Below, one piece after another: positions 12,258-28,594 of a stretch of DNA of 39,633 nucleotides. The notes beneath the pieces are model-generated. The model was given only the letters and a program-made list of their open reading frames with translations, did not search any database and was not told where the DNA came from. The position numbers and the translations under genes were made by a program. The stretch is from a virus. Positions within the stretch are counted from its first letter, which is position 1. Each line of letters starts with the position of its first letter. Location: the UHGV virus genome UHGV-1978634; one strand, 5' to 3'.

Positions 12258-14681
12258 ATGACAGACATTACAGCCAATGTTGTAATTGGGATGCCTTCGC
12301 AACTCTTCACTATGGCGCGTTCTTTTAAAGCCGTAGCCAATGGAAAAATTTATATCGGTAAAATTGACACTGACCCGGTAAATACTGAAAACCAGATTCA
12401 GGTTTATGTGGAGAACGAAGACGGTTCTCACGTTCCTGTTGCACAGCCAATCGTTATCAATGCTGCTGGATATCCGGTGCATAACGGACAGATTGCCAAA
12501 TTCGTTACTGTGCAAGGTCATTCTATGTCTGTTTATGATGCGTACGGTGTGCAGCAGTTCTATTTTCCGAATGTGCTGAAGTATGACCCCGATCAATTGC
12601 GTCAGCAAATTGAAAGTAATGGGGGCGCATCAATAATAGGGACGGCAACTGGCACTACTGTTCAGGAAGAGTTAAATAAGTTAAAGAGTCTTCCTTTTCT
12701 GTATCCAGAGCTCTATTTTGATGGGAATGAGGTGGATCATACATTAGCGTTTAAAAAAATGTATGCAGACGCAAAGATATTGAAAAAATCGGTTGTTGCT
12801 ACAGGGAATTATGTTCTCACGGCAAGTTCCACAGACCCGATTGAAATAACAGTTAGCTCAGATATGAGTGATGCAACAGTGACGTGCTCTACATATCAGG
12901 GTGGAGATGTCTGGTCTTTGGACAAGACACTATTTGAAATCGCTCAGGATGAAAATGATGTCACTGAAATGTTTTCCGCAGTAAGTTACCTGAAAGGGCA
13001 GACGAGCTTCCCTGTTACCGGATTACAGGGAACTATTATTCTTGATTCTACAGATGTTGTGATGGTGAGAAATAATGGTGGTAGTCTGTCAGACCAACTA
13101 AAAACAGAAGTTCACGAGATTGACGCTGACGGTAACTTGCGTTATCTGAACTATTATATTTATAACGATCGACCTGTTGTTAAATATAAACCTTTTACAA
13201 ATAGCCTGTATTTTAAAATGCCAAAGGTTGTTCTGGATGGGGCAAGAATCAATAATGCTGTTCTTTGCTCAAGGAATAACACCATAATACATGGAAATAC
13301 AGTTGATGTAATAAATAATGGTAGCACAAGGCAGGTAGTAAACTTCCAACGATGCTCAAGAGTTTATGTTAACAACCTATACATGAGTCCTGTTGGATAT
13401 CTTGATGGTACTGCACCCTCCATCCCCGCGGGAAGAAATGAGGCAGCTTATTTTATCCTCACTGAAAAATGTTCTGATGTAACAATGGATAATTGCTGCA
13501 GCATCAATGGATGGGGCGGCTTTGATGGTAATAAATCACGGAATATACATATTAATCGATGTGACCTCCCTGGTGTTGGCGGTCACTACAGCATGTCTGA
13601 TATTTACCTCAATGAGTCGACAGTTCGTTATCATTGCGCGGCGCAAGGTTGGGGAGAATGGGTGGCCACTAACTGTAAACATCTTGGCATGTACGGGAAA
13701 AATACTCTTGAATTCTTCTCTGTGAAGCGAGATTACATGTCATCATGGGATGGTGAGATTCGAGTTGAAGGTTTACGAGTCATGTTACCGTCTACGTGTG
13801 AAGAGTATTTCTTGGTAAGCAGTCTTGAACCAAAATATAATGGTAATTTTATCGCCACAAGCCCGGATGTAGTGATAAAGGACGTGTCTCTTGATCTGAC
13901 TAATGCCTCTGGACTTGTGGAATTTAGAATATTGGATCTCGGCGTGTCAGGCGGAAATAATTATGAGCAATATATGATTCTGCCAAACAACCACTATATT
14001 GAAAATGTAAAGGTTGTAGGGACACGTTCTTATGATTCCAATTTATCCGTCAGCGTTGTCTACAATCAAAGGAACTACTCAAGATTAACGGCCGCTCAGT
14101 TTTCAACTATCGTAGGTAGAGGGAAATACAAGCTTACAGTGAAGGATGTGGATCTCGCTCGGCTTGGGAATACTACGCAGTTATCAAACCCAAGGTATAA
14201 CGTGCAAGCGTTTAAGTTTACCACTTACCGCGTTCCACAGGATGTGAACGTCGATAACAGCTACAATTGCGTCCCTTACATTTCAGCATGGGATGACATG
14301 CTGGTGCGTATAACCAATCAAGACATGGCCATGGGGTATATCGACGGCGCGGTTGCTCGCACTTCCGCTTCATACAACAGGATCTTTTTTAACAACTGTC
14401 GAATCTATGGATTAGGTTGGGGCAGTAGCGGTGGGCAACGAACAGGTATATTTGACTTTACAAGTTGTGTATTTGGATGGTTATCTGCAATCACTGGAGT
14501 TGCGGAGACATCTAATGCAACTATAGGCCTGCTTTTTGGCGCGAATGAGTCCGGTAATAGTGCTACTGGTAAATATTCCGGATGCGCAATTCTGGTCCAG
14601 TCAAACGCTTTCCAGTTGGCTGATTCAACATTCCGTACAAGAGTCCAGACCAACTATACAAACAACGGGGTATACCAATAA
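12258..14681 (+). CDS. Tailspike protein: conserved P22-family head-binding N-terminus plus a long divergent receptor-binding part
   Basis: N-terminus [50 protein letters not shown] is the conserved tailspike head-binding domain; 807 aa total, longer than Sf6/P22/HK620 tailspikes as I recall them. Confidence 0.9.
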
Positions 14682-14714: not shown

Positions 14715-16136
14715 CTACTTGAATGTAACGATATAAATCCCAGAATCTTTTTGCAGTTTGTAATTCCTGCCATCTTCAATCAATTCTACATTCTTACCAT
14801 CTGATTTAGCAATTTCTGCATTCATTCCTGAGTACCAGAAATAAGCATTCATAAACCATTTAGAAGTCAGGTTAAATTTCACAATATTTTTTAGGATTGG
14901 ATAATCAAGATAGATCTGCTTAAGATAATGAGGAAGGTTAGGCTCATTTCTTATATCAATCTTAACTAACCCAGAACGTTTATCCATGCTGTCAATAGAT
15001 GCAATAACTGATTCTAACTTCCTGATTTTATATTCAGACTCGTATTTGAAAGCATTCACATAAATAGATGCCATTGCTACCGAAATGAATAAATAAAATG
15101 CAGTTATCAAATATACAGCATATCTTACCTTAGAATCTTTTATCTTTAGCAAAGGTGTAAGTGCGACCATTAGAAATGCAGGGAAAGACATCAGCACTCT
15201 GGATGATATTATAGCATTGCTAAACATTGCGTAGGGAATAAACAACAATAAGAATGAAATTGGCAATGAGACGGCAAATAACAATGAATCAAGGTATCTT
15301 CCACTTGTGAAAGATTTAACTGCTTGCCACAGACACACTGCGTAAGAAATAACAACGAGCACTGAAACAACTGCTAGTTGAGTCGTCGATAACGAAGTTA
15401 ACAATGAAAATATATAGTTAATATTAGATAAGAACTCGCTAATTCCATCACGATTTAAGTGAACTATTGTCGTGTGGTTGTCAACGTATACATCTGTAGA
15501 AAGCAATGTAGTTGTAGTCTGAACAATGGCAAAGGTGACAACGAATATCACAACGCTGCTTAACACGTATCTCATATTTTCCTTTTGCGTTTTACTATTA
15601 AGCAAGTTGTTTAAAGACTGAAGAATGACAAGGCAGACAAATACAGCAAACGAAGTTTGATAGAAAAAGCTTGCTGCAGTGAGAAGCAGCAGTCTGAAAA
15701 TAAAATTGAATTTATGTTCATACCTAACGGCCGCCAGCATAGCCAAAGAAAACGATGCCGACATTCCAATAACATCAATGTGGTATGACATGTTTTCAAT
15801 ATAAAATGGAGAACAAATTAAAACACATATCGTGATTGTTTTTGCAATCCATTGCTTGCCAAACACAGATTCAGCAAAGTAATTGCAGGCTACTATCATG
15901 ATAACAAATGAAACAACAAGGTTCAGTTGATAAACATCTGGCGAGATCAACTTTCCTGATGAATTCAAAAGGATGTAATACAACTCGGTAAGAAATCGAC
16001 CTTGAGAAGCTAGCCCGATATATCCGTATGAATATCTTGCTACATCATCCACAAAAGGAGGCATATAAAAGAATGGAAGGAAGAAGCAAGCGACTATAAG
16101 TATCGCTGGCATTTCATATCGCGTTAATTTAAACAT
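14715..16136 (-). CDS. Serotype-specific O-antigen glycosyltransferase (GtrC-type polytopic membrane protein)
   Basis: 473-aa highly hydrophobic multi-TM protein, AT-rich, immediately downstream of gtrB in the same operon. Confidence 0.75.
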
Positions 16137-17052
16137 CTTTAGACCCCTTAATTATATATCTTGGTCTTGATTTTACTTCGACATATATTCTGCCAATGTA
16201 TTCCCCAAGCACACCAATACCTATCAACTGAATTCCCCCCAGGAAAAGAATTGAAACCAATAGCGATGGATAACCACGGACAGCATTACCGAACACCAAT
16301 GTGTCGAAAATCATCCACACCCCGTAAAGGAACGAGAGTCCCGCAACAAGTAGACCGATGTAAGTCCACACGCGCAAGGGGAAGGTCGAGAAACTTGTAA
16401 TCCCCTCAAGCGCCAGGTTCCAGAGCTTCCAGCCATTGAACTTTGTGCTTCCGGCAACGCGTTCAGCACGGATGTATTCAACAACATCCGTCTTACCGCC
16501 AACCCAAGATAAAACGCCTTTCATAAACAGGTTACGCTCTGGCAGTAGTTTGATATTTTCTACCATCTCTCGTGACATAAGACGGAAGTCACCAACGTTC
16601 TCTTCAATCTGCGGATTACTAATTTTGTTGTGAAGTTTATAAAACCACTCAGCAGTTTTACGCTTTAACCTACCATCAGTTGATCTGTCAGAGCGCTTTG
16701 CCAGCACCATATCAGCACCTGCCTGCCACTTTTCAATAAGATGAGGAATGACCTCAATCGGGTCTTGCAGGTCAACATCAATTGGAATCACGGCATCGCC
16801 AGTTGCATGGTCTAACCCTGCAAACAATGCTGGTTCTTTACCAAAGTTGCGTGTAAATGACAGCGGAACAACTAGCGGATCAGAAACAGCCAGAGCATTA
16901 ATAATTGACTCCGTAGCGTCTTTGCTTCCGTCATTTATGAAAACAATTTCCACTTCATATGGCTTCAACTCTTCGAATTCACGTACCGTTTTATAAAAAA
17001 TTGGTATCGCTTCTTCTTCATTGAAGACAGGAACTACAAGAGATATCTTCAT
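16129..17052 (-). CDS. gtrB: Bactoprenol glucosyltransferase GtrB (GT2 family)
   Basis: 307 aa; N-terminus [17 protein letters not shown].., DVDLQDP motif, two C-terminal TM helices. Confidence 0.9.
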
Positions 17053-17411
17053 TTCGCATCCCTAAAGACAATGAACTTTGAATAGACGAAACCGCACACC
17101 AGGCTGATGGCGGAAAAGGTGACGAGAGTGATAATTGGAGGAAGTGAACATCTATCAGCAGCCCATCCAACAGTTGCACTCAGTGTTCCCATGAACCCGA
17201 CAAATAACATGTAGCGCATCGTTGTAGTCGATGCTTTGAATGTGAATTTTGCATTCGCGAAGAAGCTAAAACTCACAGCCACAACGAAACCTGCGAAGTT
17301 TGCCAGAGCCTGATTGGTATGCGCGGCATAGATACATACACCAAAAACCACCCAGTGTATAAGTGTGTTCAGCACACCAATCGAGGTGTACTTTGCAAAT
17401 AGCTTTAACAT
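17049..17411 (-). CDS. gtrA: GtrA flippase-like small membrane protein
   Basis: 120-aa four-TM protein directly upstream of and overlapping gtrB. Confidence 0.85.
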
Positions 17412-25796: not shown

Positions 25797-26180
25797 TTAG
25801 GTGCAAGCCAAATCTTCAACCATTTCGAAATTGAAGGCAATAATTAAAACGCCAATAATTGAGCCAAATATAGGAGCAAATACAGTGCATATATCGTAAT
25901 AAAACGAAGATATAAAATATCTATCGTTTGGACATCCATCTAAAGACGTCCATCTCTCGCCATTATTTCTTGCCGTTCTTGCAAAACTAGGAAGTTTCAT
26001 TGCTGCAATTAAAAGCAACAACCCAGCCACTTGGAAAAGTGCGCTATGGACAAAACTCCATGTTAGCAACTGACGAACAACATCAGGAATCTGTGCCTGG
26101 CTAAATGAAACAGCCGCGTCTATTCCATTACTGGCTTTTTGCAGAAGTTCTACGAGAATCTTGTTTGCTTGTTCTTCCAT
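25797..26180 (-). CDS. Membrane protein in pL operon (candidate superinfection-exclusion-type protein)
   Basis: 127 aa with hydrophobic segments; AT-rich. Confidence 0.55.
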   Translation of the reverse strand: MEEQANKILVELLQKASNGIDAAVSFSQAQIPDVVRQLLTWSFVHSALFQVAGLLLLIAAMKLPSFARTARNNGERWTSLDGCPNDRYFISSFYYDICTVFAPIFGSIIGVLIIAFNFEMVEDLACT

Positions 26181-26517: not shown

Positions 26518-26817
26518 TCAAATAAGTGGTTTGCTTCCTAATTTCATTTTCTGGCGACCAACACAAGTCACCCCCATTTCACTGCGTGGCTTGCGGTAGT
26601 AAATACGGTTCTGTTTACGCTCGACTTCTTCTGCCTTTTTGCAGCGAAGGCTTCCGAGTGATGTTGCTTTGTCTGCTCTGACGCAACCAGAGAGCTTTAG
26701 CGCAATTTTTCGCGCCAGTCGCTGCTCTTGCATTGCCTGTTCACGTTGAGCCTGTCTGCGTGCTCTGCGGCGATTTCTGGCGTTATCGTCAGCCAGATAT
26801 GTAATGACTACTGTCAT
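26518..26817 (-). CDS. N: Antiterminator N-like protein
   Basis: ORF 26518..26910; ATG at 26817 with GGAGG RBS; arginine-rich motif NARNRRRARRQAQREQ near the N-terminus. Confidence 0.7.
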   Translation of the reverse strand: MTVVITYLADDNARNRRRARRQAQREQAMQEQRLARKIALKLSGCVRADKATSLGSLRCKKAEEVERKQNRIYYRKPRSEMGVTCVGRQKMKLGSKPLI

Positions 26818-27125
26818 GTTGACCTCCGATGAAACAACTTTGGAATTGATAGTGATTGCAAAGTGGTTTCTGGCCCCTCGAACTGAGGGGCAGAAAGAGC
26901 ATCTCGCCACCTAATAGGTCGATGCTCGGATCGAGAGATTTAATTAACCTCGGTTTTGAAGTTATGCATTCACATAAATCCTCCTGTTGCATGTGCAGCA
27001 TTGGCTGTGTTTGGCGGCTGCATTTCGCCTATGGAATTGACTTTGGCGGTGACGCGCCGGGTGCTTATCTTCCGGTTGCCGTCGTGCAGCTGCTCACGTC
27101 ACCCCAAAGCCAACTACTCTTTGGT

Positions 27126-27167: not shown

Positions 27168-27214
27168 TGCCAATCTGTTCCGTTTGGCTTCCAGCGTCCT
27201 GCTGATGGCTAAAG

Positions 27215-27299
27215 AATACTGTAGGTATTTTATTGTGTAAATACCCAAGGTATTTATTTTTGGTGAAATAATGATAAGCAAATGAATACAAAGGATATT
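27215..27299. promoter_or_regulatory. OL operator cluster / pL region
   Basis: Three 15-bp palindromes AATAC-N5-GTATT (27215-27229, 27240-27254, 27285-27299, last one imperfect). Confidence 0.65.
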
Positions 27300-27385
27300 T
27301 ATTTTTTCGGTGTCTGCTTGTTCAGTGTTTTTTATGCGGGATATGTGAAGTTGATCCCGATAGCTATTGCTGCCGGGATTATGGG

Positions 27386-27775
27386 TTAGTCAGCGAAGGT
27401 TAAGACGAGAATTACCTTAATGATGTCTGCTACAACAGACACGGCCATAGATAAACCAAAGACGATCCAAGCCATAGAGATGTCTTCACTACCATCGTAT
27501 AGCGTTCCGTAATCACTGGTGTAAGGCGTAAATGTCGCGCCTTGATACAACAGGTATAAGCTTGAACCATAGAGGATAAATGCAGATATCCCTTGTATTG
27601 CTATGACCACTAGAATCATGAAACGAGCAGATCTATGCGCCCAAGCCTGGCTTATTTTTTCTGATAGAGATTTCGCAATAAAAGCATGCGCTAAGCCGTA
27701 AATTGTTGAGATTGCCAACATCCCCAAAAAGCTTGCTATAGCGGTTCCAACCATAATCGCCCCTTGCGTGATCAA
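27386..27775 (-). CDS. Polytopic membrane protein co-transcribed with cI (candidate exclusion / abortive-infection factor)
   Basis: 129 aa, 3-4 predicted TM helices; start overlaps the cI stop by 4 nt. Confidence 0.7.
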   Translation of the reverse strand: MITQGAIMVGTAIASFLGMLAISTIYGLAHAFIAKSLSEKISQAWAHRSARFMILVVIAIQGISAFILYGSSLYLLYQGATFTPYTSDYGTLYDGSEDISMAWIVFGLSMAVSVVADIIKVILVLTFAD

Positions 27776-28488
27776 ACCAGCCTTAGTTTTGTCTCAATTG
27801 CAACGCCTATAATCTTGCAGTTTCCATTGATTGGCACGAGAGGCCATGCAGGATTAAGTCCCTTGAGGTATTTATTTCCGCCGTCGATTATCAGCTTCTT
27901 GAATGTTGCTTCGTTAGAGTCAGAATGTTTTGCTATGACCAAGCTGCCGTTGATCGCCTCCCTTCCGGTATCGAAAAGAACGAATGTTCCCTCTGGAATG
28001 CTTAACCCAACCGGTGCCGTCATTGAATCACCTTCCACTTTAAGCCAGAACGCATTACCTTGAATATGCGCGTCAGACTCAAGCCAAACATCTATGTCTT
28101 TAATGGTGTATGGTTCGCATGCTTCACACCACGAGCCAGCCTGGATACTGCTTAACACCGGATACCTCTTTCCTGCTCTGTATTCCCCTGCATACCTTAC
28201 GTTGGCATCGCTCTTAAGGCTTTCTGCCTGTTCTGCAACCTTGGCAGCAATTGACTGGCTAAAATCAGCAATTGAGACTTGCAACAATCGTGCAAAACCA
28301 GATGCAACCTCAACGTTTAGCGCGTTTCTGCCATTAAGATAATGCCCTACCGCTCCTTGGGTGATACCCAGTTCATCAGCGATTGAGTATTGGGTTATTC
28401 CCAATTCTTTCTTTTTTGACTCATACAAAGCCTTAAGCCGCTTAGCGTCTTCGAGCTGTTCTGTCGTCAGTGATTTTTTATTTTCCAT
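27772..28488 (-). CDS. cI: CI-type repressor (HTH plus LexA-like S24 peptidase domain)
   Basis: 238 aa; ..LGITQYSIADELGITQGAVGHYLNG.. HTH; C-terminal ..VEGDSM.. autocleavage domain. Confidence 0.9.
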   Translation of the reverse strand: MENKKSLTTEQLEDAKRLKALYESKKKELGITQYSIADELGITQGAVGHYLNGRNALNVEVASGFARLLQVSIADFSQSIAAKVAEQAESLKSDANVRYAGEYRAGKRYPVLSSIQAGSWCEACEPYTIKDIDVWLESDAHIQGNAFWLKVEGDSMTAPVGLSIPEGTFVLFDTGREAINGSLVIAKHSDSNEATFKKLIIDGGNKYLKGLNPAWPLVPINGNCKIIGVAIETKLRLV

Positions 28489-28523
28489 AGCTTAATTCTA
28501 ATAGCTAAGGTACTTAAACTAAA

Positions 28524-28563
28524 AATACCCTGAGTATTGATTGCTTTGAATACCTGTAGTATT
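28524..28563. promoter_or_regulatory. OR operators with divergent PRM/PR
   Basis: aataccctgagtatt (28524-28538) and aatacctgtagtatt (28549-28563), same consensus as OL; candidate PR -35 ttgatt and -10 tattct. Confidence 0.7.
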
Positions 28564-28594
28564 CTTTGTTCATGGTTAATAACGGAGAGTGCAT

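What the first reader, a model, noticed from the sequence alone, without database searches (positions are those of the whole stretch)
27386..27775. Polytopic membrane protein co-transcribed with the cI repressor
Its start overlaps the cI stop by 4 nt, so it should be expressed in lysogens from PRM, in the position occupied by rexAB in lambda. A single 129-aa protein with 3-4 TM helices and no family I recognise is a strong candidate for a superinfection-exclusion or abortive-infection determinant.
Basis: inference. Interest (0 to 1): 0.6.

Follow-up and report, generated by a model that had tools for sequence, protein, structure and literature searches.

The report
HkaS: orphan membrane protein behind cI
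The ORF is real but already catalogued: it is hkaS of coliphage HK620, a 122-residue, three-helix inner-membrane protein that always sits just downstream of one type of phage repressor gene, and its function, plausibly protecting the lysogen from other phages, has never been tested.

Summary
The ORF at 27386-27775 (minus strand) is a genuine, conserved gene. It is hkaS of phage HK620 ("unknown", 2001) and PHROG 6534 ("unknown function").

- **Start codon.** The 4-nt overlap with cI comes from reading the longest ORF. The conserved start is ATG 27754, 17 nt after the cI stop, with its own AAGGGG ribosome-binding site. This gives 122 aa.
- **Protein.** Three transmembrane helices, predicted N-out/C-in. 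AlphaFold pLDDT is 91.5.
- **Homology.** Pfam, NCBIfam, PADLOC, the PDB, fold searches and an exhaustive HMMER scan of 1.84 billion proteins found no relative outside its own small enterobacterial family. It shows no detectable sequence similarity to RexB or P22 SieA.
- **Linkage.** It is strictly linked to this cI type: each is found at 147 places in 146 of 5426 complete E. coli genomes, and it is intact in 76 of 76 complete IMG/VR loci. The module occurs in four phage genera.
- **Selection.** It is under purifying selection, though weaker than on cI (piN/piS 0.26 against 0.02).
- **Transcription.** No promoter or terminator consensus separates it from cI, so co-transcription from PRM is likely, as for rexAB, but inferred.

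A prophage-expressed exclusion or defence role is the best guess (about 0.4 for a DNA-entry block), resting on position and analogy only. Interest is modest: a known orphan gene and a cheap, testable candidate.

The parts
27386..27754 (-). hkaS coding sequence (122 aa plus stop), a three-TM inner-membrane protein
   Evidence: PHROG 6534 E=2.6e-78, residues 8-129 of the long ORF match profile positions 1-122. 97% DNA identity to HK620 hkaS. Hydropathy and AlphaFold helices at 2-29, 41-74 and 89-121.
27755..27775 (-). 17-nt cI-hkaS spacer (27755-27771) with Shine-Dalgarno AAGGGG (27765-27760); also the non-conserved TTG (27775-27773) that overlaps the cI stop
   Evidence: Sequence read. In Salmonella and Hafnia the TTG-type start is blocked or out of frame, but an SD-like AAGGA/AAAGGA is kept.
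27772..28488 (-). cI repressor (238 aa)
   Evidence: Peptidase_S24 E=3.8e-24 and HTH_3 E=8.2e-10. 99% identical to HK620 cI.
28495..28523 (-). Candidate PRM: -35 TTTAGT (28523-28518), 17-nt spacer, -10 TAGAAT (28500-28495). The cI ATG follows 6 nt after the -10, implying a leaderless or near-leaderless cI mRNA
   Evidence: Relaxed hexamer scan. Position relative to OR2/OR3 transferred from the HK620 annotation. Not shown experimentally.
28499..28565 (.). OR3-OR2-OR1 operator region
   Evidence: Repeats AATACCCTGAGTATTGA and AATACCTGTAGTATTCT. HK620 OR1-3 annotation mapped by offset.
27354..27379 (-). Hairpin 6 nt after the hkaS stop (ATCCCGGCAGC-AATA-GCTATCGGGAT), with no U tract
   Evidence: Inverted repeat I3. 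RNA fold. Kept in Hafnia, where a G-to-A change turns a G-U pair into A-U. Function not shown.
27215..27301 (.). OL operator repeats (27215-27230, 27239-27255, 27285-27301), with the pL-like promoter on the minus strand at 27241..27213
   Evidence: Direct repeat family D1. Promoter scan TTTACA-17-TATTCT. Invariant blocks in E. coli, Salmonella and Hafnia.
26518..26910 (-). ORF containing the N-like antiterminator, first gene of the pL operon and the left boundary of the slot
   Evidence: PHROG 271 anti-termination protein N-like, E=7.8e-38. Weak Pfam N_peptide hit.

Best explanation
**What it is (well supported).** hkaS is an accessory (moron-type) gene of the HK620-type immunity module. It encodes a 122-aa protein with three transmembrane helices. 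The predicted topology is N-terminus and the acidic Tyr/Gly-rich loop 71-91 in the periplasm, and the basic loop 28-44 (with a short amphipathic helix) and the C-terminus in the cytoplasm.

**How it is expressed (inferred).** It is transcribed with cI as a bicistronic message. That message comes from PRM in lysogens and from PRE during establishment. It is translated from its own strong ribosome-binding site and is shut off once Cro represses PRM.

**What it does (inferred from position and analogy only).** In the lysogen's inner membrane it most likely protects the cell, and so the prophage, against other phages. It would act as a single-component superinfection-exclusion factor that disturbs genome delivery across the inner membrane. 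Functionally this resembles P22 SieA or HK97 gp15, though it shows no detectable sequence similarity to SieA and was not compared with gp15.
For: **Gene is real and maintained**
- PHROG 6534, E=2.6e-78.
- 76/76 complete loci are intact, with no stop or frameshift.
- piN/piS is 0.26 within E. coli. dN/dS is 0.15-0.25 between genera.

**Membrane protein with a consistent topology signal**
- Three hydrophobic segments.
- AlphaFold pLDDT 91.5 with three roughly 30-residue helices.
- Loop 1 carries a net charge of +3 to +5, and loop 2 of -1 to -4, in all seven divergent homologues.

**Co-transcription with cI**
- 17-20 nt gap in every homologue context.
- No promoter-like or terminator-like site between the genes.
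- PRM-like hexamers upstream of cI.

**Strict linkage**
- cI and hkaS are each found at 147 places in 146 of 5426 complete E. coli genomes.
- The module sits in Lederbergvirus, Lambdavirus, Shamshuipovirus and Traversvirus phages.

**The slot holds exclusion or defence cargo elsewhere**
- rexAB in lambda.
- bstA in BTP1; the cI-N interval is a described mosaic hotspot (PMC8585504).
- Unrelated cargo in related cI types.

**Precedent and dispensability**
- Small polytopic inner-membrane proteins that block DNA delivery exist: P22 SieA (162-164 aa, three predicted TM helices) and HK97 gp15 (PMC10883804).
- The gene is dispensable for lytic growth: it is frameshifted in phage HF4s.
Against: - There is no experimental or homology evidence for any function.
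- PADLOC gave no hit.
- hhalign against P22 SieA and lambda RexB gave probabilities of 0.3% or less.
- Fold searches return only generic helix bundles.
- The best-conserved segment is the cytoplasmic loop (mean column identity 0.81), not the periplasmic loop (0.72). This does not specially favour a periplasm-facing block of DNA entry.
- The module travels with four different virion types, so the target cannot be inferred from the carrier phage.
- Expression from PRM is inferred from consensus scans only.
- The slot also carries non-defence cargo in some phages.
Confidence: 0.4

Rival explanations
1. Abortive-infection effector. HkaS sits silently in the membrane of the lysogen. On infection by another phage it oligomerises or opens and collapses membrane potential, so the cell dies without releasing progeny. 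This would work like RexB or SieB but as a single component.
For: It occupies the same slot as rexAB. Polar and charged residues inside the helices are invariant (Q54, D110, K113), which would suit an oligomeric pore. Single-protein, membrane-associated abortive-infection systems are known (SieB; established knowledge).
Against: There is no cytoplasmic domain that could sense infection, and no RexA-like partner: the next feature after hkaS is OL/pL. There is no similarity to RexB and no PADLOC hit.
Confidence: 0.15
2. Lysogenic conversion unrelated to phages. HkaS alters host physiology, for example as an immunity protein against a pore-forming bacteriocin, as a modulator of an inner-membrane transporter, or as a stress or colonisation factor.
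For: By recalled knowledge (not tested here), its size and three-TM layout resemble E1-type pore-forming colicin immunity proteins. The most conserved part is a cytoplasmic amphipathic helix, which would suit binding a host partner. The module is common in commensal, animal and EHEC strains.
Against: Pfam gave no hit to any colicin-immunity, transporter or other family above noise. No bacteriocin gene is linked. The family is confined to prophage immunity regions and is absent from plasmids.
Confidence: 0.2
3. Switch modulator. HkaS acts on the phage's own lysogeny-lysis decision or induction, as has been proposed for lambda RexA and RexB.
For: The 1:1 linkage with one cI type is kept across Escherichia, Salmonella, Enterobacter and Hafnia while flanking genes are swapped. 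This is what a co-adapted partner of cI would show. A preprint reports that lambda RexA/RexB assist the transition to lytic growth (bioRxiv 10.1101/2021.04.19.439022, listed; title and abstract only were read).
Against: The protein is almost wholly membrane-embedded, with only a 17-residue cytoplasmic loop. hkaS evolves about four times faster than cI at non-synonymous sites. It is lost by frameshift in a viable phage. Tight linkage is also explained simply by the 17-nt spacing.
Confidence: 0.1
4. One reading: translation starts at the TTG that overlaps the cI stop, giving a 129-aa protein translationally coupled to cI.
For: TTG 27775 is in frame in this window and in HK620. One JGI gene call uses it (P0002, 129 aa).
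Against: No SD precedes the TTG. A strong SD sits 5 nt before ATG 27754. Salmonella has an in-frame stop just before the ATG, and in Hafnia the TTG is out of frame. PHROG 6534 is 122 positions long and aligns from residue 8. Four of the five annotated phage records read here (the fifth, HF4s, is frameshifted) and NCBI entries use 122 aa.
Confidence: 0.07
5. The ORF is a decaying or functionless remnant that persists only because it hitch-hikes with cI.
For: Constraint is much weaker than on cI (piN/piS 0.26 against 0.019). Sporadic frameshifted or internally deleted copies exist (HF4s; P0004, P0005, P0007-P0009).
Against: No stop or frameshift occurs in 76 loci despite piS of 0.03. The reading frame, length (122 aa) and 39 invariant residues are kept at 50-59% identity across genera. 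The SD is conserved. The fold prediction is confident.
Confidence: 0.05

Closest known systems
HkaS of coliphage HK620 (AAK28867, 'unknown') / PHROG 6534 ('unknown function')
   Same: It is the same gene: 96-97% identity, the same 122-aa length, the same 17-nt spacing after cI, and the same OL/pL downstream.
   Different: A few conservative substitutions only. This window's allele has S93-M94 where HK620 has T-V.
Lambda RexB (with RexA), the cI-operon exclusion system
   Same: Same genomic slot between cI and OL, on the same strand, with presumed transcription from PRM. Both are small polytopic inner-membrane proteins.
   Different: No sequence similarity (hhalign probability 0.3%; no Pfam RexB hit). 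Three TM helices, against four reported for RexB (recalled knowledge, not tested here). There is no RexA-like partner gene.
P22 SieA, an inner-membrane superinfection-exclusion protein
   Same: A small prophage-expressed inner-membrane protein with three predicted TM helices. It blocks DNA delivery by P22-like phages (PMC10883804). The present phage is P22-like and has no sieA-sized gene between gene 16 and the tailspike.
   Different: No sequence similarity (hhalign probability 0.25%). SieA is 162-164 aa, has its own promoter and lies in the immI/tailspike region, not behind the repressor.
BstA of Salmonella prophage BTP1
   Same: [quoted passage not shown] It establishes the cI-N slot as a place for defence genes (PMC8585504).
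   Different: BstA acts at sites of phage DNA replication and causes abortive infection, not at the membrane. It was not compared with HkaS directly.
HK97 gp15, a moron-encoded exclusion protein
   Same: A prophage-expressed protein, predicted to be in the inner membrane, that blocks DNA entry (cited in PMC10883804).
   Different: It lies in the tail-gene region as an independent moron. It was not compared by sequence here. Its target (tape measure or tail tube) applies to siphoviruses only.

Membership tests
HkaS / PHROG 6534 | Full-length match to the family profile (122 positions) | tested here: met
   E=2.6e-78, 261 bits, protein residues 8-129 against profile positions 1-122. 96-97% identity to HK620 HkaS.
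HkaS / PHROG 6534 | Location immediately downstream of an HK620-type cI, upstream of OL/pL | tested here: met
   17-nt gap here. The same layout is seen in HK620, HK630, mEpX2 and phi296 and in the Salmonella and Hafnia loci.
RexB (lambda exclusion protein) | Sequence membership in the RexB family | tested here: not met
   No RexB hit in Pfam at E<=1. hhalign against lambda RexB gave probability 0.3%.
RexB (lambda exclusion protein) | Adjacent rexA-like sensor gene in the same operon | tested here: not met
   Only hkaS lies between cI and OL. No further ORF with family support was found.
RexB (lambda exclusion protein) | Four transmembrane helices | tested here: not met
   Three helices by hydropathy and AlphaFold. 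The count of four for RexB is recalled knowledge.
P22 SieA superinfection exclusion | Sequence similarity to one of the SieA types | tested here: not met
   hhalign against P22 SieA gave probability 0.25%. Only the P22 type was tested; the other two SieA sequence types were not.
P22 SieA superinfection exclusion | Blocks DNA delivery by superinfecting phage; escape maps to ejection proteins | not testable with these tools
   Needs plating, potassium-efflux and escape-mutant experiments.
Known anti-phage defence systems (PADLOC-DB 2.0) | Match to any defence-protein model | tested here: not met
   0 families at E<=10.
Class I holins (three TM, N-out/C-in) | Holin family match, charged C-terminal tail, location in the lysis cassette | tested here: not met
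   No holin family in the Pfam or PHROG hits. The C-terminus ends ...LTFAD with no basic tail. The gene lies in the immunity operon.
cI-operon moron (lysogen-expressed accessory gene in the cI-pL slot) | Same strand as cI, no intervening promoter or terminator, variable cargo among related repressors | tested here: met
   Consensus scans. Unrelated cargo behind cI types of 76-78% identity. Literature describes the slot as a mosaic hotspot.
cI-operon moron (lysogen-expressed accessory gene in the cI-pL slot) | Transcript and protein present in lysogens | not testable with these tools
   Needs RNA-seq, Northern or proteomics of a lysogen.

The most novel reading that the evidence does not exclude
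HkaS founds a new, sequence-orphan family of single-component inner-membrane anti-phage proteins (exclusion or abortive infection). The family would show no detectable similarity to RexB or P22 SieA or to any PADLOC model. It is hard-wired to one widespread repressor type and is carried with it into P22-like, lambda-like, HK97-like and Stx-type prophages of E. coli, Salmonella, Enterobacter and Hafnia.
Probability: 0.45. Interest if true: 0.55.

Novelty: new member of a known kind. Interest (0 to 1): 0.35.

Why it matters
About 2.7% of complete E. coli genomes, including EHEC and Stx2c-phage lysogens, carry this repressor-hkaS pair. Yet the gene has stayed 'hypothetical' since HK620 was sequenced in 2001.

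If it proves to be an exclusion or defence protein, three things follow:
- A small, easily handled membrane protein joins the few known blocks on phage genome delivery.
- Some resistance of lysogens to heteroimmune or therapeutic phages would be explained.
- The rule that the gene behind a prophage repressor is worth screening for defence would be strengthened.

If it has no anti-phage role, it is still a compact model for what repressor-linked membrane morons do. Either way the experiment is cheap.

Tried and rejected
- **TTG start overlapping the cI stop.** Rejected on comparative grounds and on the SD position.
- **Homology to known families.** Pfam gave only sub-threshold noise: Cation_ATPase_C at 16.5 bits against a cutoff of 27.3, and TssN. 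NCBIfam gave noise. PADLOC gave nothing. PDB sequences gave nothing at E<=10.
- **Remote homologues.** The word-indexed search found 11 clusters, all the same family. The exhaustive HMMER profile search of 1.84 billion representatives found only the family itself, a 44-aa fragment and a likely spurious stretch in a 5949-aa protein with nine matched stretches.
- **Direct comparison with RexB and P22 SieA.** Negative.
- **Scan of GTDB species-representative genomes.** No confirmed locus. The prophage is simply absent from the representatives.
- **Plasmids.** No match.
- **Rfam over 25-30 kb.** Only two sub-threshold hits, elsewhere in the stretch.
- **The 35-aa plus-strand ORF 27282-27389** as a possible partner gene. 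Rejected because it carries stops in Salmonella and Hafnia.
- **Literature.** The term 'hkaS' alone returns fungal herbarium papers. 'HK620' with 'hkaS' returns none. Searches on HK620, mEpX2, cI-downstream genes and lambdoid defence hotspots found no functional study of this gene.
- **The svsR sRNA** reported at the 3' end of another prophage's cI (PMC12803456). It was not shown to be related and was not pursued.

Full report
**1. The observation**

The minus strand carries an ORF at 27386-27775, 129 codons from TTG. Its TTG (27775-27773) overlaps the TGA of the upstream gene (27774-27772) as TTGA.

The upstream gene (27772-28488, minus strand) is a cI-type repressor with HTH_3 and Peptidase_S24 domains. 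Cro (PF09048) and CII (PF05269) lie divergently to its right. To its left are:
- operator repeats AATACnnnnGGTATTT at 27215-27301;
- a pL-like promoter at 27241..27213;
- an N-like antiterminator and ral.

So the ORF occupies the interval between cI and OL/pL that rexA-rexB fill in lambda.

**2. The start codon**

The overlap is an effect of taking the longest ORF. Seven codons into the ORF is ATG 27754, preceded at 5 nt by AAGGGG (27765-27760). Several lines point to this ATG:
- PHROG 6534 is 122 positions long and aligns to residues 8-129.
- The HK620, HK630, mEpX2 and phi296 records annotate 369 nt starting 17 nt after cI.
- NCBI entries for the identical protein are 122 aa.
- In Salmonella homologues an in-frame TAA directly precedes the ATG.
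- In Hafnia the spacer is one base longer, so the TTG is out of frame and the cI stop is in frame with hkaS.
- An AAGGA-type SD is kept in both.

The gene is therefore 27386-27754, 122 aa. It is separated from cI by 17 nt and has its own ribosome-binding site.

**3. Is it a real gene?**

Yes.
- The DNA is 96-99.5% identical to a segment of 16 phage records, all 95-99%, and of 146 complete E. coli genomes.
- In HK620 the gene is named hkaS, product 'unknown'.
- The best 80 IMG/VR loci with a related cI were kept. In 76 of the 77 where sequence continues past cI and hkaS is present, the gene is full length.
- Among the 76 E. coli-type sequences analysed, none has a stop or frameshift.
- Within that set piS is similar for cI (0.024) and hkaS (0.031). 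piN/piS is 0.019 for cI and 0.26 for hkaS.
- Between genera, hkaS keeps its length and 39 invariant residues at 50-59% identity.
- dN/dS for hkaS is 0.15-0.25. Its dN is about four times that of cI: 0.34 against 0.085 for window versus Salmonella.

The gene is under purifying but relaxed selection. Most polymorphisms are conservative changes in the helices. Occasional broken copies exist: phage HF4s has a 1-nt deletion, and there are a few database fragments. The gene is therefore dispensable for lytic growth.

**4. The protein**

Hydropathy shows three hydrophobic segments. AlphaFold2 on a six-sequence alignment gives pLDDT 91.5 and pTM 0.78, with:
- helices at 2-29, 41-74 and 89-121;
- a short helix at 31-38;
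- a small beta-hairpin in loop 75-88.

In all seven divergent homologues the first loop (28-44, LSxKIxQAWxH[RK]xAR) is net +3 to +5. The second loop (71-91, QGATFxPYxSxYG..., Tyr/Gly-rich) is net -1 to -4. By the positive-inside rule (established knowledge) this predicts N-out, loop 1 cytoplasmic, loop 2 periplasmic and C-in.

Invariant polar residues lie inside the helices: S16, Y19, Q54, Y67, Y70, D110 and K113. The cytoplasmic loop is the best-conserved segment (0.81 mean column identity), followed by TM3 (0.76) and the periplasmic loop (0.72).

**5. Relatives**

None were found outside the family.
- Pfam, NCBIfam and PADLOC give nothing above noise.
- The word-indexed search of 5.8 billion proteins returns 11 clusters, all the same protein.
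- A profile HMMER search that read all 1.84 billion 50%-identity representatives finds one true cluster.
- PDB sequences give none.
- Foldseek against BFVD and the PDB gives none at E<=0.001.
- Profile comparisons with lambda RexB and P22 SieA are negative, with probability 0.3% or less.

Named members come from Escherichia, Salmonella, Enterobacter and Hafnia, and all are labelled hypothetical. There are none on plasmids.

**6. Context and linkage**

In every homologue context read, hkaS follows a cI gene by 17-20 nt and precedes OL and an N gene. Genes beyond that differ: replication modules of the O/P, DnaB or primase-helicase type, and different recombination genes.

In complete E. coli genomes the cI probe and the hkaS probe each hit 147 places in 146 of 5426 genomes.

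The module is found in four phage genera with different virions:
- Lederbergvirus (HK620, HF4s and this window, whose virion genes are Sf6/HF4s-like);
- Lambdavirus (HK630);
- Shamshuipovirus (mEpX2);
- Traversvirus, the Stx-phage type (phi296).

Two more distant cI types (76-78% identity) carry other cargo in the slot. One is a 131-aa acidic soluble ORF. The other is a convergent 128-aa ORF with a signal-peptide-like N-terminus. Neither has a Pfam match. The slot is therefore a variable cargo site, as the literature says of the cI-N interval (Degnan et al. 2007, as cited in PMC8585504).

**7. Expression (inferred)**

The consensus scans find no sigma-70-like promoter and no intrinsic terminator on the minus strand between the cI start and the hkaS stop.

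Upstream of cI a relaxed scan finds TTTAGT-17-TAGAAT, with the -10 ending 6 nt before the cI ATG and overlapping OR3/OR2. This is the lambda PRM arrangement and implies a leaderless cI message.

On such a message hkaS, with its strong SD, would be translated independently and perhaps better than cI. A hairpin follows the hkaS stop (27354-27379) but has no U tract. A second, AT-rich hairpin with a U-rich tail lies at about 27274-27304, where the HK620 record places tIMM.

None of this has been tested with RNA data.

**8. Mechanism**

The shown facts are these: a small three-TM protein, strictly cI-linked, kept by selection, dispensable for lytic growth, and sitting in a slot that carries exclusion or defence genes in other phages. 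Those other genes are rexAB and bstA (PMC8585504).

There is also precedent in small polytopic inner-membrane proteins that block phage genome delivery: P22 SieA (three predicted TM helices, inner membrane, acting on the ejection-protein conduit) and HK97 gp15 (PMC10883804).

From these I infer that HkaS most likely acts in the lysogen's inner membrane against superinfecting phages. With no cytoplasmic sensing domain and no partner gene, a passive block of DNA entry (0.4) is more likely than a triggered abortive-infection pore (0.15).

Rivals that the data do not exclude:
- a conversion function unrelated to phages, such as bacteriocin immunity or transporter modulation (0.2);
- a role in the phage's own switch, as a preprint proposes for RexA/RexB (0.1, title and abstract only);
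- a functionless hitch-hiker (0.05), which the conservation data argue against.

The high conservation of the cytoplasmic loop, and the spread of the module across virion types, are mild arguments against a simple periplasm-facing, virion-specific block.

**9. Comparison with what is known, and novelty**

The ORF is already known as hkaS / PHROG 6534, with unknown function. It is not a member of the RexB family or the P22 SieA type, of any holin family, or of any PADLOC family. The defining features that could be tested were not met.

By position it belongs to a known kind: the lysogen-expressed cargo gene behind a lambdoid repressor. I rate it a new member of a known kind. Its biochemical function would be new if shown.

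**10. Verdict**

- Interest is 0.35. It would not surprise a phage biologist, but it is a common, compact and cheaply testable orphan in a privileged position.

Noticed in passing
window 27285-27301 (and 27261-27277, 27274-27304): A third operator-like site, AATACAAAGGATATTTA, is invariant in E. coli, Salmonella and Hafnia. It coincides with what the HK620 record calls the terminator tIMM. The OL3 annotated in HK620 maps to 27261-27277, which is a poor operator match. The HK620 OL3/tIMM annotation may need revising.
   Followed up: partly
window 27282-27389 (+): A 35-aa hydrophobic ORF runs convergent with hkaS and overlaps its stop. Phage HF4s annotates it as a 'putative phage protein'. It starts inside the operator-like site and is interrupted by stops in the Salmonella and Hafnia loci, so it is probably spurious.
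   Followed up: yes
window 27354-27379 (-): A hairpin lies 6 nt after the hkaS stop and has no U tract. In Hafnia a G-to-A change turns a G-U pair into A-U. Salmonella has a different hairpin at the same place, judged by eye only. It may be a transcript-end or stabilising element.
   Followed up: partly
window 25797-26180 (-): A second orphan protein with a hydrophobic stretch (127 aa, PHROG 3054 'unknown function'; no Pfam, PADLOC or NCBIfam hit) lies just downstream of ral in the pL operon. HF4s has a gene labelled 'TM helix-containing protein' at the comparable position downstream of N (not compared).
   Followed up: no
L002 (phage HF4s) 2501-2889: The hkaS copy in the sequenced phage HF4s has a 1-nt deletion (389 nt aligned to the 390-nt query). 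It is annotated only as a 77-aa fragment. The gene is therefore dispensable for lytic propagation.
   Followed up: partly
L088 4016-4411 (+); L090 3749-4135 (-): cI types 76-78% identical to this one carry unrelated cargo between cI and N. One is a 131-aa acidic soluble ORF. The other is a convergent 128-aa ORF with a signal-peptide or lipoprotein-like N-terminus. Neither has a Pfam match.
   Followed up: partly
hkaS codons 93-94 (window 27473-27478): Two common alleles segregate among E. coli prophages at the periplasmic end of TM3: Ser-Met (42 and 44 of 76 at codons 93 and 94) and Thr-Val (32 of 76). Many conservative singletons occur elsewhere.
   Followed up: no
window 14715-17411 (-) and 10283-14681 (+): By size and order (473, 307 and 120 aa), the ORFs after the tailspike look like a gtrCBA O-antigen modification cluster (no family search was run). 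No sieA-sized gene lies between the gene-16-like ORF and the tailspike, unlike in P22. If so, this phage would lack a P22-type SieA.
   Followed up: no
window 28495-28523 (-): The PRM-like -10 (TAGAAT) ends 6 nt before the cI ATG. As in lambda, the cI message from PRM would be leaderless or nearly so, while hkaS has a strong SD.
   Followed up: partly
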